Below are positions 4,063 through 35,574 of a stretch of 37,419 nt of DNA, piece by piece. The translations under genes and the position numbers were made by a program. The stretch is from the UHGV virus genome UHGV-0125336; one strand, given 5' to 3'. The notes below the pieces were generated by a model. That model was not told the origin of the DNA, searched no databases, and saw nothing but the letters and a program-made list of their open reading frames with translations. Source of the stretch: a virus. Positions within the stretch are counted from its first letter, which is position 1. Every line of letters starts with the position of its first letter.

Positions 4063-4358
4063 GCGCCATCAACCACCAGGAATTACGCGAACTGGCGACT
4101 GACCTGCAACGAATGGCAACGCCTCAAAAATTACTGGCGTTTCGCGCAATGCTCTCGCCGTCTGCTGTGCTGGCGCTGCTGGATGAGCTGGAGCACGCCA
4201 GAACCACACCTCTCGCCATTCGCCTGACGCTCCGTCATGAAATCGAGGATTTCTGCGCGACGTTGGAGGCGCCAGGCGAACCGGAAACGCCGGAAGCAAT
4301 ACAGCAAGAGCTGCTGCAACGCATTGACAAGGTTTTTGATTTTTTTCTGAACCACTAA
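4059..4358 (+). CDS. Phage early protein, unknown function
   Basis: 99-aa acidic, helical ORF. Start overlaps the upstream stop. Confidence 0.5.
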   Translation: MSAINHQELRELATDLQRMATPQKLLAFRAMLSPSAVLALLDELEHARTTPLAIRLTLRHEIEDFCATLEAPGEPETPEAIQQELLQRIDKVFDFFLNH

Positions 4359-4480
4359 GAAACCAGAACATGCACACACAAAAAAACCGCTTGCCATGCC
4401 GCAATCAGTCAGGTTACATTTCCGCTGCACCTCACAAAACGGGTGCCGGGTTTCGCAGCCTGCTGACTACACAAGCGCAC

Positions 4481-4502
4481 AACCGCGCCAGCGGTTTTTT
4501 TG
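4481..4502 (+). terminator. Candidate intrinsic terminator inside the early operon
   Basis: AACCGC-GCCA-GCGGTT hairpin followed by a T7 run, within the 320-bp non-coding gap 4359..4680. Confidence 0.4.
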
Positions 4503-4680
4503 TGCGTACTGTATTGCCACGTTTTTTTCGCGTCAGAATTATGGCGGGGCGTACGGGGCCGACTTCGGTCGGGCCGGGTTCTTGTGTAGCCGGTACTGCG
4601 AACCTCGTACGTCTCGCCACCCACAGTTTCGCAGCTCTGGATGGTGAGTTTTCACAACTTACTACACAAGGGGCCACACC

Positions 4681-4911
4681 ATGGCAAACCGCAAACCACA
4701 CCGCGCTATCGCGGAGCGTCGTCACATCCAGACTGAAATCAACCGCAGACTTTCCCGCGCATCACGCGTCGCGCAAATCATGCACATCAATATGCTGCAT
4801 GAGCGCAGCCACGCACTATCAAACATTTATTCCGCCTCTGTTTTCAGCTATCTGGCGGATGATCTGCACGAGCTTCAACAGCTCATCCAGCAGCAAAACA
4901 AACTCCATTAA
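4681..4911 (+). CDS. Phage early protein, unknown function
   Basis: 76-aa ORF with AAGGGG RBS 8 nt upstream. Confidence 0.5.
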   Translation: MANRKPHRAIAERRHIQTEINRRLSRASRVAQIMHINMLHERSHALSNIYSASVFSYLADDLHELQQLIQQQNKLH

Positions 4912-4983
4912 CTCCTGTTCCGGGCCTTTCCTGCACCTTGCGGCGGGAGGCCTTCGCACATCTGTAACAAGAGGATTGCCGCA

Positions 4984-5349
4984 ATGATTCTCGCCAACGA
5001 CTTTCTTGAATACCTGCTCAACACAGAACGTGATCTTGCCGCTCGCGTGCGTGATCGTTATGACATGTACCTGAAATCCCTGCCTGTACCGCAGCTCGCT
5101 GACGGAAAGATTGTTATTGATGGTCGCTACATGATTGACAGCCACGAGGGAAATTACAGGCTTTACCGCATTGAAGGTGGCACCCCGTCCGTTATTGGCA
5201 TTTACCAGCGCCCATCCACTGCAATCGTCGATGTGATTGCCGACAGCATCCGCATCACACATCGCCATGCCGACACAGAAGACACCGTGCTGGAAATTCA
5301 GCGGCTGGCTACAGTCTGCCGCGACACCCTGAATGGCATGACGAAGTAA
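4984..5349 (+). CDS. Phage early protein, unknown function
   Basis: 121-aa ORF immediately upstream of gene A. Confidence 0.55.
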   Translation: MILANDFLEYLLNTERDLAARVRDRYDMYLKSLPVPQLADGKIVIDGRYMIDSHEGNYRLYRIEGGTPSVIGIYQRPSTAIVDVIADSIRITHRHADTEDTVLEIQRLATVCRDTLNGMTK

Positions 5350-9593: not shown

Positions 9594-9926
9594 ATGCAAC
9601 ACATTGACAGAGAAAAAGCGCAGCGACTGATTGAGCGGATGGAAGCGCTGGCGAAAGAAGAAAATGTCAACATCCAAAAAATAGCTGAATGTGGCCAGAT
9701 AGTTCTTCGTCGTGAAAAAGACCTCAAACAACTGATGTCTGGCGAAACCAGCAAAACATGGACTTCAGGCGAGAAGACGGTTTATTGCAGCTTCTGCAAT
9801 AAATCCCAGTACGAAGTCACAAAGGTGATTGCCGGACCGTCTGTTTACATCTGCAATGAGTGCGTGGATTTGTGCAATGAAATTATCAGGAAAGAAGTGA
9901 CAGACAAAAAGGAAAAAAACGCATGA
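9594..9926 (+). CDS. Small protein with a C-terminal ClpX N-terminal zinc-binding-domain (C4) homolog
   Basis: The C-terminal 40 aa ([40 protein letters not shown]) is near-identical in pattern to the E. coli ClpX ZBD as recalled ([40 protein letters not shown]). No AAA+ domain follows. N-terminal 60 aa are helical and unrelated. Confidence 0.7.
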
Positions 9927-10237
9927 ACAGAAAACAGAAACAAGAGTTGAAATACTTCTTACGTAAAGAAATTGCCAGGCTTGAAGATGCAGAGTCACAA
10001 TCATCAGAAATTCCGTTCGGAATGGATATCAACGACGCCCGTATGCTCCAGGCATACCGCATAGCTCAGGCTGCACTACAGGCAAAACCGTCAGATGGAC
10101 TGGTTAGAGCAGTACATTTCTATGAACAGGTAAAGCGTGAGAATCCGCCAGTCGAAACCGGAGCATGGAAAGACGCTGTTGACTGGGTGCTCAAAGAGGC
10201 TTGCCAGTCTGTAAACATTGGCATCAAAGGAGAGTGA
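9923..10237 (+). CDS. Hypothetical protein
   Basis: 104-aa ORF. Start overlaps the upstream stop. Ends ...IGIKGE. Confidence 0.5.
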
Positions 10238-25783: not shown

Positions 25784-26068
25784 ATGGACTTAACCCCGGT
25801 GTTCCATGCACTTTGTGCGGTGGCCACTCAGTTTCTGGTAGGTCTTTTTACCGGAAACTGGGCTTACGGAGCGATAGCCGGTTGTACGTTCTTCATTGCG
25901 CGTGAACACACCCAGGCAGAATATCGCTGGATTGAAATGTTCGGGCATGGCAGGCGTATGAATATGCCGTGGTGGGGCGGTTTTGACCCACGCGCGTGGG
26001 ATATGGCAAGTCTGATGGATTTTGCAGTGCCGGTGGTGGCATGTCTGCTGGTCTGGCTGGTCGTATGA
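25784..26068 (+). CDS. Small two-TM membrane protein in the position normally held by gpG
   Basis: 94-aa ORF starting 2 nt after the H stop. Two hydrophobic segments. Not gpG-like. Confidence 0.5.
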   Translation: MDLTPVFHALCAVATQFLVGLFTGNWAYGAIAGCTFFIAREHTQAEYRWIEMFGHGRRMNMPWWGGFDPRAWDMASLMDFAVPVVACLLVWLVV

Positions 26069-26080
26069 CGTAGCAGGAAA

Positions 26081-26105
26081 CAGGGGGATTTGCCCCTGTT
26101 TTTTT
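26081..26105 (+). terminator. Intrinsic terminator of the H operon
   Basis: CAGGGG-GATTTG-CCCCTG hairpin followed by a T7 run. Confidence 0.55.
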
Positions 26106-26222
26106 GTTCAGAATGCAGCCTTCACCATTCGTCTCTAATCGTATTCAGTAATTCGCCCGCAGAAACAAACTAAAATTCATCCCCCACATCACGCCACTGA
26201 AAGCAGACGGTAAACTCCAGAT
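26106..26222 (-). pseudogene. Degenerate remnant of a gpU 3' end
   Basis: About 75-80% identical by eye to 26888..27010 (the intact U 3' end) in the same orientation. Reading frame preserved at the stop (RMVKAAF* versus KMATAAF*), but an in-frame TAG lies upstream. Confidence 0.6.
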
Positions 26223-26525
26223 TTTCAAACCAGCGTCAGAAGTATTTAAATGGCACCAGATGTAATATGCAGGCGATTAATATGGTGTGCTTAAAGATCA
26301 TAAAAGCGGGCAACATTAAAACTCCGGGCTGTGTAAATTACCGCCACTCATAATCAGAGATGAAAACAGAATTAAACTGGCGGCGTGGATTGTATACATA
26401 AAATAAGTTCAGTTGTTGACTTTCACTTCCGTGAGTTGATGAAGGTTATTACAATACACCGGTATGATCTCTCCTCCTTAAAAGGGAGGACTTTTCAGAA
26501 CGCAGAAATTATTTATAATCCCGTA

Positions 26526-26576
26526 GTGTTCTACACATGCCAACATTCTTTGCCCGCCCCGTGCGGGCTTTTTTTT
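26526..26576 (+). ncRNA. Candidate small RNA 1 (about 50 nt)
   Basis: Weak promoter (TTTTCA-N16-TATAAT, -10 at 26514-26519) upstream of a strong terminator (GCCCGC-CCCGT-GCGGGC plus T8, 26552-26576). No convincing ORF. Confidence 0.25.
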
Positions 26577-26666
26577 GCCATAAAGACACAGTAACAAACA
26601 GAATTGTAATCAGAGCAATAAAATCATGAAAAACATTTTCATTGATGACGATAACAATTAAAAATA

Positions 26667-26696
26667 TTGCATTAAATGATTCCCGTTCAATATAAT
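26667..26696 (+). promoter_or_regulatory. Sigma70-like promoter (TTGCAT-N18-TATAAT)
   Basis: -35 TTGCAT at 26667-26672 and -10 TATAAT at 26691-26696. Drives the short transcript ending at the 26740-26763 terminator. Confidence 0.45.
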
Positions 26697-26703
26697 CCCC
26701 CTG

Positions 26704-26763
26704 CAACCAGAAAAATTAAATCTTCACACAATGCATGTTGCCCTCTTTATGAGGGCTTTTTTA
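26704..26763 (+). ncRNA. Candidate small RNA 2 (about 60 nt)
   Basis: Between the TTGCAT/TATAAT promoter and the terminator GCCCTC-TTTAT-GAGGGC plus T6. No ORF. Shares a CACA-ATGC-TTGCCC motif with candidate 1. Confidence 0.35.
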
Positions 26764-26854
26764 TTTCCCGAATATCACCATTGCCATCATCGGGCGATTT
26801 ATATATAGTCAGAATGTATTGACAACATTTTGCTTCTTTTCCATGAAGGCCATA

Positions 26855-26886
26855 AGGGAGTGCTTTTTACACTCCCTCTTTTTTTA
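26855..26886 (+). terminator. Intrinsic terminator abutting the U stop codon
   Basis: AGGGAGTG-CTTTTTA-CACTCCCT followed by a T8 run. Plus-strand oriented. Confidence 0.6.
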
Positions 26887-26887
26887 T

Positions 26888-27352
26888 TCAGAATGCCGCT
26901 GTCGCCATTTTGTCTTTAAGCGTGTTCAGTAATTCGCCCGCAGAAGCAGACTGAAACCTCTCCCTCATATCCTCATCACACCGCTGAAAGCTGATGGAGA
27001 ACTCAATCTTTTTTGCCTTTCCGTAACGATCCAGTTCGGAGCGGGTGGTCTGTAATCCCGTAATCACGTACATTCCGTAAATCTGCCCCGTGCCATCAAT
27101 CAGCGGCCAGGGACATCCTGTGTAGGCCTGGGTGTTCAGTAGTGTCAGCGACACCTCACCGCCGGTAATTTCCGGGTACAGCAAACCGGACAGCGTGATC
27201 TGGTCATCACCTGCGCCGATATACTGCCAGGCCGCAGAGCGGTTAATGCGCTCATTTTTCACATGTCGCCATGTTTTGCTCTGCTGGATCTGCTGATGTG
27301 GCAGCGTGCGCAGCTCAAAAACAAACATGCCGTAGATCATCATCATGGTCAT
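26888..27352 (-). CDS. U: Tail protein, P2 gpU-like
   Basis: ...ITLSGLLYPEITGGEVSL...IDGTG... parallels recalled gpU (...VTLSGTLYPELTGGRLSL...IEGTG...). Confidence 0.85.
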   Translation of the reverse strand: MTMMMIYGMFVFELRTLPHQQIQQSKTWRHVKNERINRSAAWQYIGAGDDQITLSGLLYPEITGGEVSLTLLNTQAYTGCPWPLIDGTGQIYGMYVITGLQTTRSELDRYGKAKKIEFSISFQRCDEDMRERFQSASAGELLNTLKDKMATAAF

Positions 27353-27358
27353 GACTCC

Positions 27359-30199
27359 TCAATCTTTATCGTAAAAACTGCCACGCCCGACACGGGCGCG
27401 CCGTTCCATTTCTGCCCTGACCATTTCACCGACCAGTTTCGCCAGTTCGCGGGGATTCTGCGTAACAACGTTATGCAGATGAACATGAATTTCACCACCA
27501 AATCCGGAGGCAACAGGCTCCCGGTTACGGGAAGTTACAGGAACTGATGCCACTGGAGATCGTATGGCCTCCGCCACCGGGCGGGAGCTGGCCGCAACAA
27601 CAGGGACCAGCGCCGGAGGCAGCGGAGCCGGGACCACGGGTGTGATATTAATTGCGGGGGGCTTACTGACCTGCGCAATCTTCCGCTCCTGCCACTCCCC
27701 ACGAACGGCAAGTGCGCGGGGCAGGTTCTTAAAGACAATATCACCGGGGCCAATGCGTTTTTTCGTCTCATCAACCAGCTTACCTGTGTTATCAGCAATT
27801 TTGCTGAGTCTGCGCAGCGTACCGGTATTGCTGTCTGTGAGTGGTTTATTGTCTTTGGGTTTATCACCTCCCGTGCCATTGCCATTTTCCACAGGCTTCG
27901 GCGGATTGATTTTCGCCAGGTCCCCCTGAAGCAAGGCAACCTTGTCCTGAAGAATGGCCGCACGCTGTGCGTCTTCGATTTTCTTGCGCGCCCTTTCCGC
28001 TTCATCCGGAAGGACGCCAAGTTTTTCAAGTATCCACGCCAGCGTATCCAGCAACATTTTTGCAGGCGTCAGAACAAGCTGTAGCGCGCCACCAAGAGCG
28101 TTACCGAATATCTCGCCAGCACTGGTACATTTATCCAGCGTTTCCTTGCTGGACTCCATCGGTGACAGCAGCGATTTAAACCAGTTAAACACCTGGCTGA
28201 TCCCGCTTCCGATTGCGTCAAAAACAGGACCAAACCGTTCAAAGGTTTCACGCAACGGGTTCAGCCTTTCCATAATCCCGCTGAACACCCCGGCAAAAAA
28301 TGCCCTGATGGGATCCCAGTATTTCCAGATAAGAACGGCAGCTCCGGCAAGCGCAGCCACGATAAGACCAACCGGACTGAACAGCGCCCCGATAGCGCCT
28401 CCCAGCAAAGAAACGGAACCCGTCACCATTCCCCACAGCGCAGGCAACACCCTGACGACATTCATTGACCGGGTAAGAATGTCAAAACCAAGACGCAGGG
28501 TGGCCAGCTTCCCGTAAAGCACCCCAATAACCAGCGACAACGAGCCAATCGTTGCAGTCATTGCCAGCAACGCACCGCCTGCTATCAGTAGCTGGCGCGT
28601 CAGTACCGGATGGGCCTGCGCCAGCGAGGTGATTTTTTCAAGCACCCGCGTGAGCCACTGCGTGACAGAACGCAGCGGACCGTCAACCAGATCACTGATG
28701 CGAATACGAAGACCTTCCCATGCGCTGTCGAGATTTTTCAGGTCCCCATCAAGATTATCGGCCATTACTTTTGCAACGCGATCGGCCTCTCCCCTTGCCC
28801 CCTGCAATTCTCTGGTCAGTTTTTGCAGCTCTCCTGAACCAGCCGCCGCAACAAGCGTCTGCAAACCAACGAACGCCTCTTCTCCGGCGATGTCCTTGAA
28901 GAAGGAGACCTGGTCCACCTGTCCGTATTTTTGTGTCGCCTTATAGAGATCAAGCAGCACATCCTCCATCGGGCGCATTTTGCCTCTGGCGTCAGCAACT
29001 GACACCCCCAGCTCTTTCAGCGCATCAGCCGCAGCTTTTGGCGGTGATGCAAGGCGGGACAGACTTGCGCGCATGGCCGTACCAGCATCGCTTCCACGAA
29101 GACCATTATTGGCAAGCATCCCGGCCATGGCTGCCGCTTCTTCAAGACTGATACCAAGTTTTGCGGCAACCGGACCGGTATACTTCATGGTTTCGCCCAG
29201 CGCGCGTAAATCAGTATTGGTCCGGGTGAATGCCGCTGTCAGCGTATCGCCAACCCGGTCCATTTGATCGGCTGTCAGGTTGAACTGTGTGAGGATATTG
29301 GAGCCTATATCCGCCGTCTCGCCGAGTTCGACGCCACCTGCCAGCGCCATATTAAGAACACCGGGCAATGCGGCCTGAATGGCCTGCGGAGTAAAACCAG
29401 CCATTGCCAGAAAGCTCTGCCCACTGGCGGCATCACTCGCAGTAAACTGTGTTTCAGAACCAAGTTTTAACGCCTGCTCACGCAGCGCCTTAAACTGCGG
29501 GCTGTTTTTGTCGATTCGCGTCAGTGCCTGAACGCGGGACATCTCTTTGCCGAACCCGATCGCAGGCTGCAAAAAACGCCCGGAAGCATAGCCGCCAGCC
29601 GCTGCAGCACCAATTGCCAGCGCACCACCTGTTTTCAGTTTTCCCGCGGTTTCCTGCGCGCGCGAATACCGCTCACGCGCCCGCGTTACACGCGCAAGCG
29701 CCTGCCGTTCGCGTTCAAGCTGGTTGTTGTACTGTTCGGTGCGTCTGATGGCCTGCTGGATTGTGTTATCGCTGCCTGTCAGGGAAATGCCGTGGCGTTT
29801 CAGCTCTCCGCCAAGTTCCCGCATTTTCTGAATTTCCCGTGTGCGCGATTCATTCAGGCGTTCAAGCCGGGTGCTTAACTGCTGCATCAGCTTTTGTTGT
29901 TTTTCGCTGAGCACTGTACCCGTGCGTTGTAACTGATTAAGGGCGTTAAGCTGGCGTCGTGCTTTCACGATGCCAGCATCCGCTTTACTGACAGCGTCGC
30001 GGGCGCGCTCAAATGATCGCGCCTGACGCTCGAGATTTTTGATCGCCCCCTGCGTTCGCTGGATGGAGTCACCAAACTGCCCCATCAGGCGGCGGGCGTT
30101 TTCGGCAGGCCGGGTCAGCCTGTCAACGGCGCTGAAAGCGACCCGGATATCAAGAGTCTTCATTGTCTGCATTCCCGCTGCGAAGTGCCGCCCGCTCAC
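27359..30199 (-). CDS. T: Tail tape-measure protein, P2 gpT-like
   Basis: 946-aa ORF, helix-rich with Ala/Gly-rich hydrophobic central segments, between E/E' and U. Confidence 0.85.
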   Translation of the reverse strand: MSGRHFAAGMQTMKTLDIRVAFSAVDRLTRPAENARRLMGQFGDSIQRTQGAIKNLERQARSFERARDAVSKADAGIVKARRQLNALNQLQRTGTVLSEKQQKLMQQLSTRLERLNESRTREIQKMRELGGELKRHGISLTGSDNTIQQAIRRTEQYNNQLERERQALARVTRARERYSRAQETAGKLKTGGALAIGAAAAGGYASGRFLQPAIGFGKEMSRVQALTRIDKNSPQFKALREQALKLGSETQFTASDAASGQSFLAMAGFTPQAIQAALPGVLNMALAGGVELGETADIGSNILTQFNLTADQMDRVGDTLTAAFTRTNTDLRALGETMKYTGPVAAKLGISLEEAAAMAGMLANNGLRGSDAGTAMRASLSRLASPPKAAADALKELGVSVADARGKMRPMEDVLLDLYKATQKYGQVDQVSFFKDIAGEEAFVGLQTLVAAAGSGELQKLTRELQGARGEADRVAKVMADNLDGDLKNLDSAWEGLRIRISDLVDGPLRSVTQWLTRVLEKITSLAQAHPVLTRQLLIAGGALLAMTATIGSLSLVIGVLYGKLATLRLGFDILTRSMNVVRVLPALWGMVTGSVSLLGGAIGALFSPVGLIVAALAGAAVLIWKYWDPIRAFFAGVFSGIMERLNPLRETFERFGPVFDAIGSGISQVFNWFKSLLSPMESSKETLDKCTSAGEIFGNALGGALQLVLTPAKMLLDTLAWILEKLGVLPDEAERARKKIEDAQRAAILQDKVALLQGDLAKINPPKPVENGNGTGGDKPKDNKPLTDSNTGTLRRLSKIADNTGKLVDETKKRIGPGDIVFKNLPRALAVRGEWQERKIAQVSKPPAINITPVVPAPLPPALVPVVAASSRPVAEAIRSPVASVPVTSRNREPVASGFGGEIHVHLHNVVTQNPRELAKLVGEMVRAEMERRARVGRGSFYDKD

Positions 30200-30368
30200 G
30201 CCAGCTAACCACTTCGCCGGGCGTCATCATGAAGATTTCGGCGGGCGACCAGTTAAAAATGGCGGCAATATCCGCCACAAAGTCTTCTATGTGCTCAAAG
30301 CACACAACCGTGATCAGGCTTCCGTCGCCTGTTCGTTCTTCCCGCCAGAGTCCGCACCGCTCAAAAAA
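30150..30368 (-). CDS. E' extension, reached by programmed -1 frameshift from E (E+E' product)
   Basis: Minus-strand heptamer TTTTTTG (plus coordinates 30362-30368) lies in-frame in E as AAT-TTT-TTG. The -1 frame continues as ERCGLWREER... to a stop at 30150, as in P2 E/E'. Confidence 0.65.
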   Translation of the reverse strand, partial: FFERCGLWREERTGDGSLITVVCFEHIEDFVADIAAIFNWSPAEIFMMTPGEVVSWRERAALRSGNADNEDS

Positions 30369-30679
30369 TTTACGGCAACCACACATAACTGAATAAAGTC
30401 ACGGGATGCCATTTTTTTGATCGTCACTTCATCCAGTCGCGGTGATGTCACGCGTGACAGCAGCGTAAACATGGATTCCGCTTTCAGATTCAGCACATCA
30501 GACAGCGACAAATCTCGCAGAGATCCAGCCTGCTCAATAGCCCCGGTGATCTCCACATACGTGATTTTTTCGCCGCCTCGCTCAATTGGTTGGGTAAGTT
30601 TTACGCCACGCTCACTGGTTTCTTTCACAGTGTCAGTAACTACCGTGTTTTCGGTATCGATGTTTTTCGTCTCTTTCAT
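30314..30679 (-). CDS. E: Tail assembly chaperone, P2 gpE-like
   Basis: 121-aa ORF upstream of T. Contains the slippery site used for E+E'. Confidence 0.8.
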   Translation of the reverse strand: MKETKNIDTENTVVTDTVKETSERGVKLTQPIERGGEKITYVEITGAIEQAGSLRDLSLSDVLNLKAESMFTLLSRVTSPRLDEVTIKKMASRDFIQLCVVAVNFLSGADSGGKNEQATEA

Positions 30680-30733
30680 CAGGAAACTCCTTTCAGTCAG
30701 AGGCGACGCACTGCGCCGCCTGCATATTACTTA

Positions 30734-31246
30734 TCAGCCAAGCCCGAGCGCGGAACGGATGCGATCGGGCACAATGTCCTTGCCGTCCTTCCGGTAAATG
30801 AAGTTCAGCAGGTCAATCTCCCACAACGGGCGATCGTTAACACTCAGCTTGTAGTAGGTGTTTTTAATGGCGTAAGTGTGTGATGTGGCTTCGCCCTGTT
30901 TGGCTTCCCCCATATCAATTTCCGTCACACGTCCGCGCATTTCGACTTCATACAGGTCGCTTTCTGCATCGGTGTAGTATTCACCCGCAAAACGCAGCAG
31001 CGTGCCGTCAATCGTGCCGCCATACTTAAGGAACAGCTCACGAACTGCGCCCCCCATGACAAAGCTCGCATCAAGCGCGGAGTCGTCCAGACCGAGATCA
31101 ATACTTACCGCACCCATCATGCCACCACCCCGGTAGCTGTCGGTTTTGCGCGTCAGCTTAGGCAGAGTGACGGACGTCACCTTACCCACTTCGTTTTCAC
31201 CATCCACAAACAGCGTAAAAAAGCGAAGATGTTTTGGTACAGCCAT
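30734..31246 (-). CDS. FII: Tail tube protein, P2 gpFII-like
   Basis: 170-aa ORF immediately downstream of the sheath gene on the same strand. Confidence 0.85.
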   Translation of the reverse strand: MAVPKHLRFFTLFVDGENEVGKVTSVTLPKLTRKTDSYRGGGMMGAVSIDLGLDDSALDASFVMGGAVRELFLKYGGTIDGTLLRFAGEYYTDAESDLYEVEMRGRVTEIDMGEAKQGEATSHTYAIKNTYYKLSVNDRPLWEIDLLNFIYRKDGKDIVPDRIRSALGLG

Positions 31247-32430
31247 CAGGCACCTCCCAGCACCGCAAATGCGGGACCAAAGAATTCATCAGTAAACGAC
31301 TGGTAAAGCTCCATGTCTTCCAGCGGGGGAACAGGCGTATATTTGTAGCGAATACGCACGCGCCCCTGACGTAAATTCGTGGTGCCGTTATCCACCACGT
31401 CATACCAGCACGACGCCCCAATCAGTTTCCCGGCAGTAACCAGTGAATCCAGTTTTGCCCTGATGGCACTGATAACATCTTTCACGTTCGCAGGCGTCAG
31501 TGGACTGTCGATGGTTTCAAACTGCGCTTCCGCAATTGAATCAGCCAGCACCTGTGCGGTTCGGGTATACACCTCAAAGATGTAGGCGTTCGTTTCCGGT
31601 GTGCGGTTGCCCCAGAAGCGGAACCCGTTGCGACGAATAATGGTCGTGATTTCTTTGTTGTTGAGGCTGTTGGCATCACTGTCTTCGGCCTGCAACGACC
31701 AGAACACATGCCTGGACATCCCCAGCACATTTTTAACCGGAACGTTGGACAGCGATTTGTGCCAGCCCTGCTCATGGTCAATGTACGCACGAAGGCCGCA
31801 CGCATAGGCAGGCGCGGGGAACGTTTCGTTTTTGCCACTTTTCGGGTTGTAGGCGATGAAGTCCGGCCATAAGAGCATCACCTCACGTTCGTTGAATTTC
31901 TGGCGGTAGGTAATCGCCTCAGCCATCGTGTTACAGCCGTGACATGAGGCATACACAAACGCGCGCAGTTTACCCGCAATCACGCACAGGGATTTTGTTA
32001 CCGCCTCCGTGTCCAGCTCCGGCGCGGCCAGAATACGCGGACGGTATCCGATGCTTTCATCCTGCTCTGCAACAAGCAGCGCATACATCCCCGTATAGCT
32101 GCCGTCAGATTCAGAACCACCGATAACCAGTTGATCCTGCGTTTTTCCGTCTTCTTCTTTGTGTTCAGCCACGCGAACGACGATCACCTTTGTGCTCACC
32201 TGGTCTGCGATGGCCTTAAGCGCACGATAAAGCGTCCCCGTTGTTCCGCATTTTCCCAGCACGTCATTGACGCGGGTCAGCAGTGTGGGCTTGTTCAGCG
32301 GGAACAGCTCCGCATCCGCATCATCCGCCGTTGCCACGATACCGATAACACTGGAATCAACATCGTTAATCGCTGTTACCAGGTCGGTATTTTCCGTAAC
32401 ACGGGCACCATGAAAACGAGTTTCACTCAT
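31246..32430 (-). CDS. FI: Tail sheath protein, P2 gpFI-like
   Basis: ...DADAELFPLNKP...RAF.Y......EA..YRQ.F..RE.M..WPDF.A....EQGWHK(T/S)LSNV...FWGNRT...YTRTAQV...YTPVPPLE... matches recalled gpFI. Confidence 0.9.
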   Translation of the reverse strand: MSETRFHGARVTENTDLVTAINDVDSSVIGIVATADDADAELFPLNKPTLLTRVNDVLGKCGTTGTLYRALKAIADQVSTKVIVVRVAEHKEEDGKTQDQLVIGGSESDGSYTGMYALLVAEQDESIGYRPRILAAPELDTEAVTKSLCVIAGKLRAFVYASCHGCNTMAEAITYRQKFNEREVMLLWPDFIAYNPKSGKNETFPAPAYACGLRAYIDHEQGWHKSLSNVPVKNVLGMSRHVFWSLQAEDSDANSLNNKEITTIIRRNGFRFWGNRTPETNAYIFEVYTRTAQVLADSIAEAQFETIDSPLTPANVKDVISAIRAKLDSLVTAGKLIGASCWYDVVDNGTTNLRQGRVRIRYKYTPVPPLEDMELYQSFTDEFFGPAFAVLGGA

Positions 32431-32586
32431 AGCTTCAGCCCCTTGTATCCGTTAAATGATTCGGCAACAATCATCACCCACCACGCGCGTAATCTCACCC
32501 CTGCGCCGTTCTCCCGCCACGGCGACAACAAAAAGCAGTAACCCCCTACGCACGCACATGCGACCATGCCGCACAGGGAGGGAACA

Positions 32587-33697
32587 GATGACCGATACCA
32601 CCATGCAATTGCTCAGTCAGAGCACAGACCCCGTGAAAATGCCGGATTTTGATATTCTCGCGGAGGGGGAAACACTGTCCGGCGTGGCAGAGCGCCTGAT
32701 GAGCCTGTCACTGACCGACAACCGGGGATTTGAAGCGGACCAGCTCACCATCACGCTGGATGATGCGGATGGTCAGTTGCAGCTACCGCCACGGGGCGCG
32801 CGCCTGACGGTTCTCATTGGCTGGAAAGGAGAACCGCTGACAGAAAAAGGCACTTACATTGTTGATGAAATCGCACACGAAGGACCGCCGGACAGGCTGA
32901 CTGTTTCAGCCAGAAGCGCAGATTTTCGGGATGAATTTAACGTTAAACGTGAGGTGTCCTGGCATGATGTGACCGTTGAGCGCGTGGTATCCGCCATCGC
33001 TCATCGGTACGGTCTGAAACCACAAATCAGCGAAATGCTGATGGATATTGAAATCGACCACGCCGACCAGACCGAAGAAAGCGACATGTCCTTCCTTACG
33101 CGCATGGCGGAAATGCTGGGCGCAATCACTACGGTAAAAAGCGGTAATCTGTTATTCATCATGCCAGGCGGTGGCGTGAACGCACAAGGCCAGCCGTTGC
33201 CCTCGTTCGCCATCACGCGCAGCAGTGGCGATCGCCATCAGTTCCGCATTGCTGACCGCGAAGCGTATACGGGGGTACGCGCTTACTGGCTTGATCTTAA
33301 TTACGGGAAAAAGAAAAAAGTCAGCGTGAAACGCCGCAAACCGCCAAAACCCAAAAAGGAGAAAAGCAGCAGCCGTGAAGGTGATTATATGGAAGGCGCG
33401 GAAGGCAATGTGTTTGTGTTACGCAAGGCTTATCAGAACGAGCAGGCAGCAAGACGCGCAGCGGCGGCAAAGTGGCAGCAGCTACAACGCGGAGCCGCAT
33501 CATTTTCCATCACGCTGGCGCGTGGACGTGCAGAACTCTACCCCGAAATGCATGGCACGGTAACAGGATTTAAAAGCGAGATTGATAATCAGGACTGGAT
33601 TATTGCGAAAGCCGAGCACACCATTGATAACAGCGGCTTTACCACGCAGCTTGAGCTTGAAGCAAAAATCCCGGAATGGATAGCAGAAACAGAGTGA
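32587..33697 (+). CDS. D: Tail/late protein, P2 gpD-like
   Basis: ...LAEGETLSGVAERLMSLSLTDNRG.EADQL.I.L.D.DG.L.LP.RGARLTVLIGW.GE.LT... matches recalled gpD. Start at 32587 after an AGGGAGG RBS. On the opposite strand to FI. Confidence 0.85.
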
Positions 33698-33739
33698 GCA
33701 ACTTAGAATAGCGGCAGCACCACGTTAAGGGAGGTCGCT

Positions 33740-34000
33740 ATGTTCCGTTGTCCGCTTTGTGGCGCATCTGCCCGTATCCGCACCAGTCGTTCGGAAAATG
33801 ATTCAAACACCGTACGGAAAAAATATTACCAGTGTAACAACCTGGAATGCGGCATAAGTTTCTCAACACTGGAAGCTTTCCATAAATTCACATCGAAACA
33901 CGCCCCCGGCGTTCACTCTTCAGAAGGTATCCCGTGGCATGAGTTGCCAGCTTCACACAGGGGAAACAATCAGATGAGTTTGCCTTTACCTCAGAATTAA
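33740..34000 (+). CDS. ogr: Ogr/Delta-family zinc-finger late-gene activator
   Basis: MFRCPLCG...YYQCNNLEC: a CxxC...CxxxxC zinc finger at the N-terminus as in P2 Ogr (MFHCPLC...YHQCQNVNC as recalled). Longer C-terminal tail than P2 Ogr. Confidence 0.75.
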   Translation: MFRCPLCGASARIRTSRSENDSNTVRKKYYQCNNLECGISFSTLEAFHKFTSKHAPGVHSSEGIPWHELPASHRGNNQMSLPLPQN

Positions 34001-34190: not shown

Positions 34191-34331
34191 ATGTCGCAAA
34201 AATCGCTTACGGCCATCACGTTCTGCGTGACGGCAATCCTCATCATCTGGATGCTGCACGGTTCGCTGTGCGAAATACGGATGAGCTTCTGGGGAGCGGA
34301 GTTTGCGGCGTTCTTACAGTGTAAGCAGTAA
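34191..34331 (+). CDS. hok: Hok/Gef-family type I toxin (46 aa)
   Basis: MSQKSLTAITFCVTAILIIWMLHGSLCEIRMSFWGAEFAAFLQCKQ: one TM helix, then the SLCEI motif and an AAFL.CK C-terminus, closest to HokA as recalled. SD AAGGAG (34177-34182) sits in a hairpin. A GNRA-loop hairpin follows the stop (34341-34362). Confidence 0.7.
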   Translation: MSQKSLTAITFCVTAILIIWMLHGSLCEIRMSFWGAEFAAFLQCKQ

Positions 34332-34740: not shown

Positions 34741-35574
34741 ATGGTCATGAATAATAAGCTAAAGGTAATTGAGTTAAATAGTCTTGATCTGTTTCGTAAA
34801 GAATTACTAACTACTATAAAGCCAGAGAAAGTAGAGAAATTACTTAGATGGTATCTTCAATCATATGGCGGTGTTAATTTCAAGTTCGGTTATGACAGAC
34901 CAATTTTTAGAGCGCGAAAGTGCCCAAATGAATGCGGATATAATAACATCAGTGAGATATATCCCCCTCCACCAGAAAAATGTAAAATAGGCCGAATGAA
35001 TGATGATGGACAAGCTATCTTCTATGGCGCTTATAGTATCGGAACAGCTTTAGCCGAAATTAATGCAAAAGAAGGGGATTATGTTCACATAGCTCACTTT
35101 AAGATGCCGGAAAATTCAGAGTCTGGAATGCGATGTTTTGCTATCGGTGAGGTCTTTAATGTGTATCACGGTGTAAATACAATTTCAATTGAAGTGTTTA
35201 ATGAAATTCGCGACATCATTAGCAGAATTGGTAAGGACGACATCCGAGCTTTGCTATCATATTTGTATATGGATGCCCTTTCTGCTGAGTTGCTTAATAG
35301 TATCAATGCCCATGAGGTAAATTATATTTACTCAAGAATTTTTTGCCGTCTTCTTCTTGATAAATACCCTGATGTTGATGGTCTTATTTATCCTAGCGCT
35401 AAAATAAAAGGGGCCTCAAATATCGCTTTGCGCACAGAAACAGTTAAATCGAGAATGCATTTAGTTGCTAATCTTGTGTTTAAAGTAAATAAAATTTATC
35501 CATATGGAATAGTAGATTTCAGTATAGTAAAACAAGCCAAAGGACATACATCAGATGGGCGCATCGTTTGGTGA
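34741..35574 (+). CDS. RES-domain-like protein (putative NAD+-targeting toxin fold) with an N-terminal extension
   Basis: KIGRMNDDGQAIFYGAYSIGTALAEI fits the RES pattern (G-R-W/M-N..G...Y.A.S...A..E), and DGLIYPSAKIKGASNIAL fits the second conserved block. No adjacent Xre/antitoxin-like ORF. AT-rich. Confidence 0.5.
   Translation: MVMNNKLKVIELNSLDLFRKELLTTIKPEKVEKLLRWYLQSYGGVNFKFGYDRPIFRARKCPNECGYNNISEIYPPPPEKCKIGRMNDDGQAIFYGAYSIGTALAEINAKEGDYVHIAHFKMPENSESGMRCFAIGEVFNVYHGVNTISIEVFNEIRDIISRIGKDDIRALLSYLYMDALSAELLNSINAHEVNYIYSRIFCRLLLDKYPDVDGLIYPSAKIKGASNIALRTETVKSRMHLVANLVFKVNKIYPYGIVDFSIVKQAKGHTSDGRIVW

What the first reader, a model, noticed from the sequence alone, without database searches (positions are those of the whole stretch)
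30362..30368. Conserved E/E' programmed -1 frameshift site
The slippery heptamer TTTTTTG (read on the minus strand) sits in-frame in E, and the -1 frame runs to a stop overlapping the T start. This reproduces the P2 tail chaperone frameshift and confirms the identity and orientation of the tail block.
Basis: partly seen in the sequence, partly recalled or inferred. Interest (0 to 1): 0.2.

Follow-up and report, generated by a model that had tools for sequence, protein, structure and literature searches.

The report
Phage tail-chaperone frameshift site, confirmed
This is the well-known ribosome "slip" site that lets P2-family phages make a short and a long tail-assembly chaperone from one gene; it is real here but ordinary, and in this phage lineage a second slippery motif one codon upstream may do the work.

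Summary
On the minus strand, TTTTTTG (30368->30362) lies in the canonical register T_TTT_TTG inside gene E (30679->30314, 121 aa). The -1 frame stays open from there to TGA 30152-30150, which overlaps the tape-measure start (ATG 30163) by 14 nt. The predicted 176-aa E+E' fusion aligns end to end with P2 E+E'. Its -1 extension matches Pfam Phage_P2_GpE (44.6 bits, cut-off 23).

An in-register T_TTT_TTN occupies the same spot in 73 of 80 genome loci from different species and in P2, Wphi and 186. Sequence variation switches to -1-frame periodicity inside the overlap, before the E stop. No downstream RNA structure is conserved, as reported for P2.

Two refinements. First, the element is a P88-like (Xuanwuvirus) E. 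coli prophage, not P2 proper, and D and ogr lie on the opposite strand. Second, the site is really a decamer, A_AAT_TTT_TTG, made of two overlapping slippery heptamers. In 120 related viral contigs AAATTTT never varies, while 59 have lost TTTTTTG (TTG->ATG) yet keep E' intact. The working slip site in this lineage may therefore be 30371->30365. Database records annotate E' as a separate 51-aa gene. This is a known mechanism and of low interest.

The parts
30314..30679 (-). Gene E, the tail assembly chaperone (zero-frame product, 121 aa). The start ATG at 30679 is preceded by the SD AAGGAG at 30692-30687.
   Evidence: ORF. It matches phrog_103 'tail protein' at 2.3e-35. The Pfam Phage_TAC_7 match scores 17.2 bits, below the cut-off of 25. 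RefSeq annotates the same coordinates as 'tail protein'. The protein aligns with P2 gpE.
30362..30368 (-). Slippery heptamer T_TTT_TTG, at the position homologous to the P2 E/E+E' shift site.
   Evidence: Searches give the register. The same heptamer sits at the aligned Phe-Leu codons in P2, Wphi, 186 and 8 other Peduoviridae phages. It also occurs in 73 of 80 genome loci as T_TTT_TTN.
30365..30371 (-). Overlapping upstream slippery heptamer A_AAT_TTT. Together with the part above it forms the decamer AAATTTTTTG at 30362-30371.
   Evidence: It is in register. It is invariant in 120 of 120 related IMG/VR contigs, 59 of which have lost TTTTTTG. It is the only canonical heptamer in P88_4B11 and in Citrobacter phage Shae_phiSM.
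30150..30362 (-). E', the -1-frame extension of 70 codons plus the stop TGA at 30152-30150. Joined to E codons 1-106 it gives a 176-aa E+E' fusion.
   Evidence: It matches PF06528 Phage_P2_GpE at 44.6 bits against a cut-off of 23 and phrog_1756 at 2.1e-38. -1-frame codon periodicity already appears inside the overlap with E.
27359..30163 (-). Gene T, the tail tape measure. Its ATG at 30163 overlaps the E' stop by 14 nt.
   Evidence: It matches PF10145 at 1.5e-56 and TIGR01760 at 3.9e-86. RefSeq uses the same start.
30734..31246 (-). Tail tube gene (FII homologue), immediately upstream of E.
   Evidence: PF04985 at 7.5e-47.
31246..32430 (-). Tail sheath gene (FI homologue).
   Evidence: PF04984, PF22671 and PF17482.
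26888..27352 (-). Gene U homologue, downstream of T.
   Evidence: PF06995 Phage_P2_GpU at 9.5e-40.

Best explanation
This is a programmed -1 ribosomal frameshift site in the tail-assembly-chaperone gene of a P88-like (Xuanwuvirus, Peduoviridae) E. coli prophage. Most ribosomes translate E to its stop at 30316-30314 and make the 121-aa chaperone. A minority slip back one base on the decamer A_AAU_UUU_UUG while the tRNAs for Asn/Phe or Phe/Leu occupy the P and A sites. These ribosomes continue in the -1 frame for 70 more codons and make a 176-aa E+E' fusion that ends where the tape-measure gene T begins. By analogy with P2 gpE/gpE+E' and lambda gpG/gpGT, the shared N-terminal domain would bind the tape measure and the E' domain would recruit the tail tube. 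The fixed low slip frequency would set the ratio of the two proteins needed for tail assembly. What is shown here: the geometry, the homology, the conservation and the coding signature of the -1 frame. What is inferred: the fusion protein itself, the frameshift efficiency, which of the two heptamers is used, and the binding partners.
For: This is the only one of 29 TTTTTTG copies in the window with that geometry. E' matches PF06528 at 9.9e-12 and E and E' match phrog_103 and phrog_1756. All 14 reconstructed fusions from different phages match PF06528 and 13 of 14 match PF10109 Phage_TAC_7. The fusion aligns full-length with P2 and 186 E+E', with the slip-site Phe nearly invariant. GenBank records for Wphi, 186 and Milagro annotate a -1 frameshift at the homologous site. 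PMC3091744, citing Christie 2002 and Xu 2004, states that P2 shifts at TTTTTTG to give E (91 aa) and E+E' (142 aa). In-register T_TTT_TTN is found in 73 of 80 species-level genome loci and some canonical heptamer in 75 of 80. Where T6 is broken, another in-register heptamer replaces it: AAATTTT, CCCTTTC, AAAAAAG or GGGAAAG. Across 24 distinct relatives the variability peak moves from zero-frame position 3 upstream (1.33 bits) to -1-frame position 3 (1.05 bits) within the last 24 nt of the overlap. Amino-acid identity in the overlap is 0.59 in the -1 frame against 0.43 in the zero frame. The window versus 4B11 comparison shows the same trend. P88, which carries the identical decamer, is an inducible phage with a normal contractile tail.
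Against: There is no protein-level evidence for this lineage. No stimulatory RNA structure was found: the first 60 nt downstream fold no better than shuffles (z = +1.19), and the relatives share no consensus structure. In E. coli reporters without a stimulator both heptamers are barely above the 0.055% background: UUUUUUG 0.118% and AAAUUUU 0.070% (Sharma 2014 Table S3). Sequence alone therefore cannot explain a useful efficiency. The window's E reaches only 17.2 bits against the 25-bit cut-off for Phage_TAC_7, and no NCBIfam model matches E or the fusion.
Confidence: 0.9

Rival explanations
1. The mechanism is the same, but in this lineage the ribosome slips on the upstream heptamer A_AAU_UUU (30371->30365), one codon before the site the reader named. 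U_UUU_UUG would then be a dispensable relic or a secondary contributor. The junction would read ...VNFFER... rather than ...VNFLER....
For: AAATTTT is invariant in 120 of 120 related IMG/VR contigs. In 59 of them TTG has become ATG, which destroys TTTTTTG, yet the 71-codon E' stays intact. Two of those 59 are in the window-type sequence background. P88_4B11 and Citrobacter phage Shae_phiSM have only AAATTTT. Klebsiella phage Kp4847-1 and K. michiganensis have moved the site the same way, to C_CCT_TTC followed by TTG. Eleven of 80 genome loci carry such an overlapping upstream heptamer. With stimulators, AAAUUUU shifts 11.4% against 0.77% for UUUUUUG in E. coli reporters, and the main text says UUY A-site codons shift better than UUR.
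Against: Without a stimulator, which is the situation found here, the reporter values are reversed: UUUUUUG 0.118% against AAAUUUU 0.070%. TTTTTTG is the experimentally established P2 site and is by far the commonest in the family. Both heptamers may be used in the window, and nothing here measures their shares.
Confidence: 0.4
2. E' is an independent small gene with its own start codon, and no frameshift occurs. The start would be GTG 30305, as annotated in RefSeq and the P88 record (51 aa), or ATG 30386, the 78-aa ORF listed mechanically.
For: PGAP and the P88, 4B11, SEN5, Shewanella and Yersinia records annotate a stand-alone 'GpE family phage tail protein'. An ATG lies in the -1 frame 18 nt upstream of the heptamer.
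Against: The annotated starts differ from record to record, giving products of 29 to 51 aa, as expected if gene callers simply take the first available start. -1-frame codon periodicity and higher -1-frame amino-acid conservation begin upstream of the E stop, and so upstream of GTG 30305. No SD-like sequence precedes ATG 30386 or GTG 30305. In P2, 186, SEN5, Shewanella M16-3 and Yen201.16 the -1 frame has a stop 0-9 nt before the heptamer and no start codon in between, so upstream initiation is impossible there. The slippery heptamer would have no reason to be conserved in register in 75 of 80 loci.
Confidence: 0.04
3. The fusion arises from transcriptional slippage. RNA polymerase would add one U at the T6 run, giving an mRNA that encodes E+E' in a single frame.
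For: A T6 (A3T6) run is present, and adding one U would yield ...NFFER..., the same product as a ribosomal slip on AAAUUUU. UUUUUUU and AAAAAAA runs are known slippage-prone motifs.
Against: Half of the sampled sister sequences have only T4 (AAATTTTATG) and Kp4847-1 has CCCTTTCTTG, both too short for polymerase slippage, yet they keep E' intact. The conserved feature is the reading register of the heptamer, which matters to ribosomes and not to RNA polymerase. The P2 event is described as translational.
Confidence: 0.03
4. The match is chance. A common T-rich heptamer happens to sit in a decaying prophage and has no function.
For: TTTTTTG occurs 29 times in the window. A canonical heptamer somewhere in an 85-nt overlap is not very rare, at roughly 0.1 by simple counting.
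Against: All the homology and conservation evidence above argues against it. The tail block is 100% intact relative to inducible phage P88.
Confidence: 0.01

Closest known systems
Bacteriophage P2 gpE / gpE+E' programmed -1 frameshift (Christie et al. 2002, as described in PMC3091744). Annotated likewise in Wphi (AY135739) and inferred in phage 186 (orf51/orf52).
   Same: It uses the same heptamer T_TTT_TTG at the aligned Phe-Leu codons. The gene sits in the same position between tube and tape measure. E' ends overlapping the T start. The E' domain is homologous (PF06528; 45% identity over 42 aa). There is no downstream stimulatory structure.
   Different: E+E' is only 33% identical overall. 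E is 121 aa against 91 and the fusion is 176 aa against 142, with an N-terminal extension and a 14-residue insertion after the slip site. E continues 15 codons past the site against 6 in P2. An extra overlapping heptamer, A_AAT_TTT, is absent from P2, which has GGT there. D and ogr are on the opposite strand rather than completing an F-E-T-U-D operon.
Escherichia phage P88 and relatives (Xuanwuvirus; NC_026014, NC_049343, NC_049391)
   Same: The region is 98.9-99.4% identical across E/E', with the same decamer, gene order and divergent D gene.
   Different: These records annotate E' as a separate 51-aa 'tail protein' and do not record a frameshift. The P88 paper does not mention one. The P88_4B11 sub-lineage has AAATTTTATG instead of AAATTTTTTG. 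Next to U, P88 has a DNA invertase that the window lacks.
Lambda gpG/gpGT and the general tail-assembly-chaperone frameshift of long-tailed phages (Xu, Hendrix and Duda 2004; reviewed in PMC5009743)
   Same: Two overlapping ORFs lie between the major tail protein gene and the tape-measure gene. They give a short abundant product and a rare -1 extended product sharing its N-terminus.
   Different: Sequence homology to lambda G/T was not tested or claimed here. The slippery sequence is different. This is a contractile-tail phage, so the presumed partner of the extension is the tube protein FII rather than gpV.
Burkholderia P2-like phages KS5, KS14, KL3, phiE202 and Milagro
   Same: TTTTTTG is conserved in register, no downstream hairpin is present, and the frameshift is predicted from sequence.
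   Different: These are hosted in GC-rich genomes where the -1 frame is open far upstream. They have no overlapping upstream heptamer of the AAATTTT type, although a GGGGGGT lies 18 nt upstream.

Membership tests
P2-type gpE / gpE+E' tail chaperone frameshift (Peduoviridae) | The gene pair lies between the tail tube gene (FII) and the tape-measure gene (T), on the same strand. | tested here: met
   Tube 30734-31246, E 30314-30679 and T 27359-30163 are all on the minus strand. Pfam matches are PF04985 and PF10145.
P2-type gpE / gpE+E' tail chaperone frameshift (Peduoviridae) | A canonical X_XXY_YYZ slippery heptamer lies in register near the 3' end of E, at the position of the P2 site. | tested here: met
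   T_TTT_TTG is at 30368->30362, at offset 311 mod 3 = 2. It aligns with the Phe-Leu codons of P2 and 186.
P2-type gpE / gpE+E' tail chaperone frameshift (Peduoviridae) | A -1-frame ORF is open from the heptamer and terminates at or overlapping the T start. | tested here: met
   The -1 frame is open from 30398 to 30153. The stop at 30152-30150 overlaps T ATG 30163 by 14 nt.
P2-type gpE / gpE+E' tail chaperone frameshift (Peduoviridae) | The -1 extension belongs to the P2 GpE (E') family, Pfam PF06528. | tested here: met
   44.6 bits against a cut-off of 23, E = 9.9e-12, covering residues 135-170 of the fusion. phrog_1756 matches at 2.1e-38. tblastn matches P2, 186 and Wphi E' at 45-46% identity.
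P2-type gpE / gpE+E' tail chaperone frameshift (Peduoviridae) | The zero-frame product belongs to the gpE tail-assembly-chaperone family, Pfam PF10109 Phage_TAC_7. | tested here: inconclusive
   The window's E scores 17.2 bits, below the 25-bit cut-off, and no NCBIfam model matches. However, phrog_103 matches at 2.3e-35. E aligns with P2 gpE with invariant R34, L54, R55, L74, R76, P80 and D94. Thirteen of the 14 aligned relatives match PF10109.
P2-type gpE / gpE+E' tail chaperone frameshift (Peduoviridae) | The -1 frame is under protein-coding selection from the slip site onwards, not merely from a downstream start. | tested here: met
   The codon-position variability switches inside the overlap, and amino-acid identity is 0.59 in the -1 frame against 0.43 in the zero frame. 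The window versus 4B11 comparison gives 7 of 12 overlap differences at -1-frame position 3. These are small numbers.
P2-type gpE / gpE+E' tail chaperone frameshift (Peduoviridae) | No downstream stimulatory RNA structure, as reported for P2. | tested here: met
   The first 60 nt downstream give z = +1.19. RNAalifold on 25 relatives gives -0.13 kcal/mol, 2 pairs and no covariation.
P2-type gpE / gpE+E' tail chaperone frameshift (Peduoviridae) | A fusion protein E+E' is actually produced and is required for tail assembly. | not testable with these tools
   This needs proteomics or genetics. The only indirect support is that P88, with the identical site, forms normal contractile tails.
Bacteriophage P2 itself (genus Peduovirus), with the FETUD operon layout | Close nucleotide similarity to P2, and D following U on the same strand. 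| tested here: not met
   blastn of the E/E' region finds Xuanwuvirus phages at 85-99% identity, Klebsiella and Enterobacter phages at about 72%, and no Peduovirus record. D (32456-33697) and ogr (33740-34000) are on the + strand, as in P88.

The most novel reading that the evidence does not exclude
The slip site in this lineage may be caught mid-migration. The decamer A_AAU_UUU_UUG carries both the ancestral P2 heptamer and a newer heptamer one codon upstream. Once the upstream heptamer exists, the ancestral one becomes dispensable. It has been lost in about half of sampled Xuanwuvirus sequences (TTG->ATG) and, independently, in Reipivirus-type Klebsiella phages (C_CCU_UUC UUG). If so, in the window most or all frameshifting happens at 30371->30365 rather than at the reported coordinates. 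The family would then offer a natural series for studying how a recoding signal moves while the protein ratio is preserved.
Probability: 0.4. Interest if true: 0.3.

Novelty: new member of a known kind. Interest (0 to 1): 0.15.

Why it matters
The value is mostly practical. This tail block occurs in 1516 of 5426 complete E. coli genomes. RefSeq and GenBank annotate E' there as a free-standing 51-aa 'GpE family' gene instead of a frameshift-joined E+E', so the real 176-aa chaperone is missing from protein databases. There is also a modest scientific point. The family shows an almost universally conserved but intrinsically weak heptamer, with repeated replacement or doubling by an adjacent heptamer. 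That makes a small natural experiment on how phages keep a fixed low chaperone ratio. Nothing here challenges current understanding.

Tried and rejected
- **Downstream stimulatory RNA structure.** The first 60 nt fold no better than shuffles (z = +1.19). The 100-nt fold (z = -1.96) owes its stability to a hairpin 54 nt downstream, too far away to act on a slipping ribosome. Several relatives seemed to pair CGCC...GGCGG in single-sequence folds, but RNAalifold on 25 sequences found no consensus and no covariation. Rejected.
- **Upstream SD-like stimulator.** None is visible in GTGTGGTTGCCGTA. This was not quantified.
- **P2-type late promoter dyad, TGT-N12-ACA, upstream of the sheath gene.** There were 10 matches in the window against 9 expected, and none in the 32430-32600 intergenic region. 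Dropped.
- **Solved structures related to E+E'.** None were found, even at E <= 1.
- **NCBIfam models for E or the fusion.** None matched.
- **Original P2 paper (PMC135442).** It is not held. P2 facts are taken from PMC3091744.
- **First IMG/VR pattern scan.** It had one N too many and found nothing. It was repeated correctly.
- **First automated parse of genome loci.** It misassigned the E stop in GC-rich genomes. It was redone with a motif-anchored method.
- **Structure prediction.** Not run. It would not bear on the frameshift, and the alignment built from fetched loci is not accepted by that tool.

Full report
**1. The observation**

Read on the minus strand, the window has ...GTT GCC GTA AAT TTT TTG AGC GGT.... 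TTTTTTG occupies 30368->30362. Gene E runs from ATG 30679 to TGA 30316-30314 and encodes 121 aa. Its start is preceded by AAGGAG at 30692-30687.

The heptamer begins at offset 311 of E, and 311 mod 3 = 2. The reading is therefore T_TTT_TTG, with Phe in the P site and Leu in the A site. This is the canonical X_XXY_YYZ register.

From the G at 30362 the -1 frame reads ERCGLWREERTGDGS...RSGNADNEDS and stops at TGA 30152-30150. The tape-measure gene T starts at ATG 30163, so the sequence ATGAAGACTCTTGA gives a 14-nt overlap.

The heptamer on its own proves nothing. It occurs 29 times in the window against 12.8 +/- 3.7 expected. Only this copy has a long zero-frame ORF upstream, a nearby zero-frame stop and a -1 frame that continues for 70 codons.

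**2. What the genes are**

Pfam identifies the following:
- sheath, 31246-32430
- tube, 30734-31246
- tape measure, 27359-30163
- U, 26888-27352, like the three above on the minus strand
- D (32456-33697) and an Ogr/Delta zinc finger (33740-34000), on the plus strand

The reconstructed 176-aa fusion matches PF06528 'Phage P2 GpE' in its -1-frame part (residues 135-170; 44.6 bits against a cut-off of 23). E alone matches PF10109 Phage_TAC_7 only weakly, at 17.2 bits against 25. PHROGs gives strong matches: phrog_103 for E at 2e-35 and phrog_1756 for E' at 2e-38.

The DNA is 100% identical to a prophage of E. coli AVS0969. It is 98.9-99.4% identical to phages P88, 500465-2 and PhiR44_2, and 85% identical to P88_4B11 and Citrobacter phage Shae_phiSM. 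All of these phages belong to genus Xuanwuvirus, family Peduoviridae. blastn against the phage collection finds no P2 record, and the divergent D/ogr arrangement is native to P88. The tail block therefore belongs to the P2 family but not to P2 itself.

**3. Homology of the frameshift**

tblastn with the fusion protein finds 288 phage records. Closer relatives match as two pieces in two frames. P2, Wphi, 186, PSP3 and the Burkholderia phages match the E' part at 41-47% identity.

I reconstructed E+E' fusions from 13 other phages and aligned them with the window's. The alignment is collinear over the full length and is 31-35% identical to P2-group proteins. Residues are invariant in both halves, and the slip-site Phe is nearly invariant. 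All 14 fusions match PF06528, and 13 match PF10109.

GenBank records of Wphi, 186 and Milagro annotate a -1 frameshift at exactly this place. PMC3091744 summarises the experimental P2 case: a shift at TTTTTTG, E of 91 aa, E+E' of 142 aa and no downstream hairpin.

**4. Conservation of the signal**

In-register TTTTTTG occurs at the aligned codons in P2, Wphi, 186, SEN5, KSP20, Shewanella M16-3, Yersinia 201.16, RSA1, Alfacinha1, phiE202 and Milagro, and in Kp4872-3.

In 80 genome loci from different bacterial species:
- 73 have in-register T_TTT_TTN.
- 75 have some canonical heptamer.
- The other five are at contig ends or are decayed copies in Symbiopectobacterium, which still contain TTTTTTG.

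Flanking bases vary freely while the T run does not.

**5. Evidence that the -1 frame is translated from the slip site**

Across 24 distinct enterobacterial relatives, I measured column entropy by codon position:
- The 90 nt upstream of the site peak at zero-frame position 3 (1.33 bits, against 0.72 and 0.58).
- The last 24 nt of the E/E' overlap already peak at -1-frame position 3 (1.05, against 0.43 and 0.46), as does the E'-only region downstream.
- Mean amino-acid identity in the overlap is 0.59 in the -1 frame and 0.43 in the zero frame.

The window against P88_4B11 shows the same pattern, with 7 of 12 overlap differences at -1-frame position 3.

This argues against the database annotation, which makes E' a separate 51-aa gene starting at GTG 30305. 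It also argues against initiation at the -1-frame ATG 30386, which has no SD. In P2, 186, SEN5 and others a -1-frame stop lies 0-9 nt before the heptamer, so upstream initiation is excluded there.

**6. Stimulators**

The 60 nt downstream fold no better than shuffled sequence (z = +1.19). A hairpin that lowers the 100-nt energy lies 54 nt away. RNAalifold on 25 relatives finds no consensus structure. This agrees with what is reported for P2.

**7. Refinement: a double slippery site**

The sequence is A_AAT_TTT_TTG, so a second in-register heptamer, A_AAT_TTT (30371->30365), overlaps the first.

AAATTTT was invariant. Sixty-one contigs had AAATTTTTTG and 59 had AAATTTTATG. Two of the 59 were in the window-type background. 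Nearly all kept a 71-codon E'.

P88_4B11 and Shae_phiSM have only AAATTTT. Klebsiella phage Kp4847-1 and K. michiganensis have C_CCT_TTC TTG, which is the same one-codon upstream move with T6 broken. Eleven of the 80 genome loci carry CCC, GGG or AAA immediately before the T run.

Sharma et al. 2014 measured both heptamers in E. coli reporters:

| Heptamer | No stimulator | IS911 stimulators | IS3 pseudoknot |
|---|---|---|---|
| UUUUUUG | 0.118% | 0.247% | 0.765% |
| AAAUUUU | 0.070% | 0.355% | 11.4% |

The upstream heptamer is therefore sufficient in sister lineages and may be the main site here. The unstimulated reporter values do not decide between them. The two routes give ...VNFFER... 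and ...VNFLER..., which mass spectrometry could tell apart.

The short T4 run in half of the lineage also argues against transcriptional slippage as the mechanism.

**8. Verdict**

The feature is a member of the long-known P2-type tail-chaperone -1 frameshift. It sits in a P88-like prophage whose public annotations do not record the frameshift.

The one point of modest novelty is the overlapping or migrating slippery heptamer. The fusion protein, the frameshift efficiency, the choice of site and the binding partners remain inferred. Interest is low.

Noticed in passing
window 32456-34000 (+): The D (baseplate hub, PF05954) and Ogr/Delta zinc-finger genes are transcribed divergently from the sheath gene rather than following U as in the P2 FETUD operon. 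Phage P88 has the same layout. RefSeq calls D from a much later start (window 32897) and adds a pseudo-ORF, so the true D start is uncertain.
   Followed up: partly
window 30150-30305 (-): RefSeq (PGAP) and the P88 and 4B11 records annotate E' as a free-standing 51-aa 'GpE family phage tail protein' starting at an internal GTG. Other phage records choose different starts, giving products of 29 to 44 aa. This looks like a systematic annotation artefact. The tail block is present in 1516 of 5426 complete E. coli genomes.
   Followed up: yes
window 34191-34331 and 34741-35574 (+): Just beyond ogr, the identical RefSeq genome annotates a Hok/Gef family toxin and a RES-family NAD+ phosphorylase. 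These look like toxin or defence cargo at the prophage end.
   Followed up: no
window 25784-26887: The ORF at 25784-26068 is 93% identical to a hypothetical gene of lambda-like phages. The following ~820 bp have no ORF of 90 aa or more and no match to the phage collection. P88 has a DNA invertase at the equivalent position next to U, which is absent here.
   Followed up: partly
window 30702-30720 (-): A GC-rich hairpin, GGCGGCGCAGTGCGTCGCC, lies in the tube-E intergenic region just upstream of the E ribosome-binding site and has no T tail. Phage 186 has an annotated partial terminator (tI) at the corresponding place. The hairpin might lower expression of E, T and U relative to sheath and tube.
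   Followed up: no
window 30259-30278 (-) and about 30286-30308 (-): Two hairpins lie inside the E' coding region. One is terminator-like, GTGGCGGATATTGCCGCCAT followed by TTTTT, and lies over the conserved ADIAAIF motif. The other is a 9-bp stem just after the E stop. P2 does not have the first, so it is probably coincidental.
   Followed up: no
window 4340-4346 (+) and 9914-9920 (+): Two other in-register slippery heptamers sit 1-3 codons before a stop, with the -1 frame continuing into the next ORF. TTTTTTT precedes 4370-4987 and AAAAAAC precedes 9923-10237. These are probably ordinary gene junctions, but they were not examined.
   Followed up: no
L100 (Symbiopectobacterium sp. Tser MAG), locus positions ~961-985: A 1-nt insertion just after an intact TTTTTTG fuses E and E' into one continuous ORF. 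This is either a hard-wired E+E' in a decaying symbiont prophage or an assembly error. L101 and L102 carry other disrupting indels.
   Followed up: partly
window, whole: TTTTTTG is over-represented on both strands, with 29 copies against 12.8 +/- 3.7 expected from dinucleotide shuffles. None of 100 shuffles reached 29. The cause is unknown.
   Followed up: no
Relatives (L103, L107-L109, L112-L114, L136, L158 and others): Overlapping 'double' slippery sites (CCC, GGG or AAA followed by TTTTTTN) recur in several unrelated branches of the E/E' family. The intrinsically weak heptamer UUUUUUG is nevertheless by far the commonest. This suggests selection for a low but non-zero frameshift rate.
   Followed up: partly
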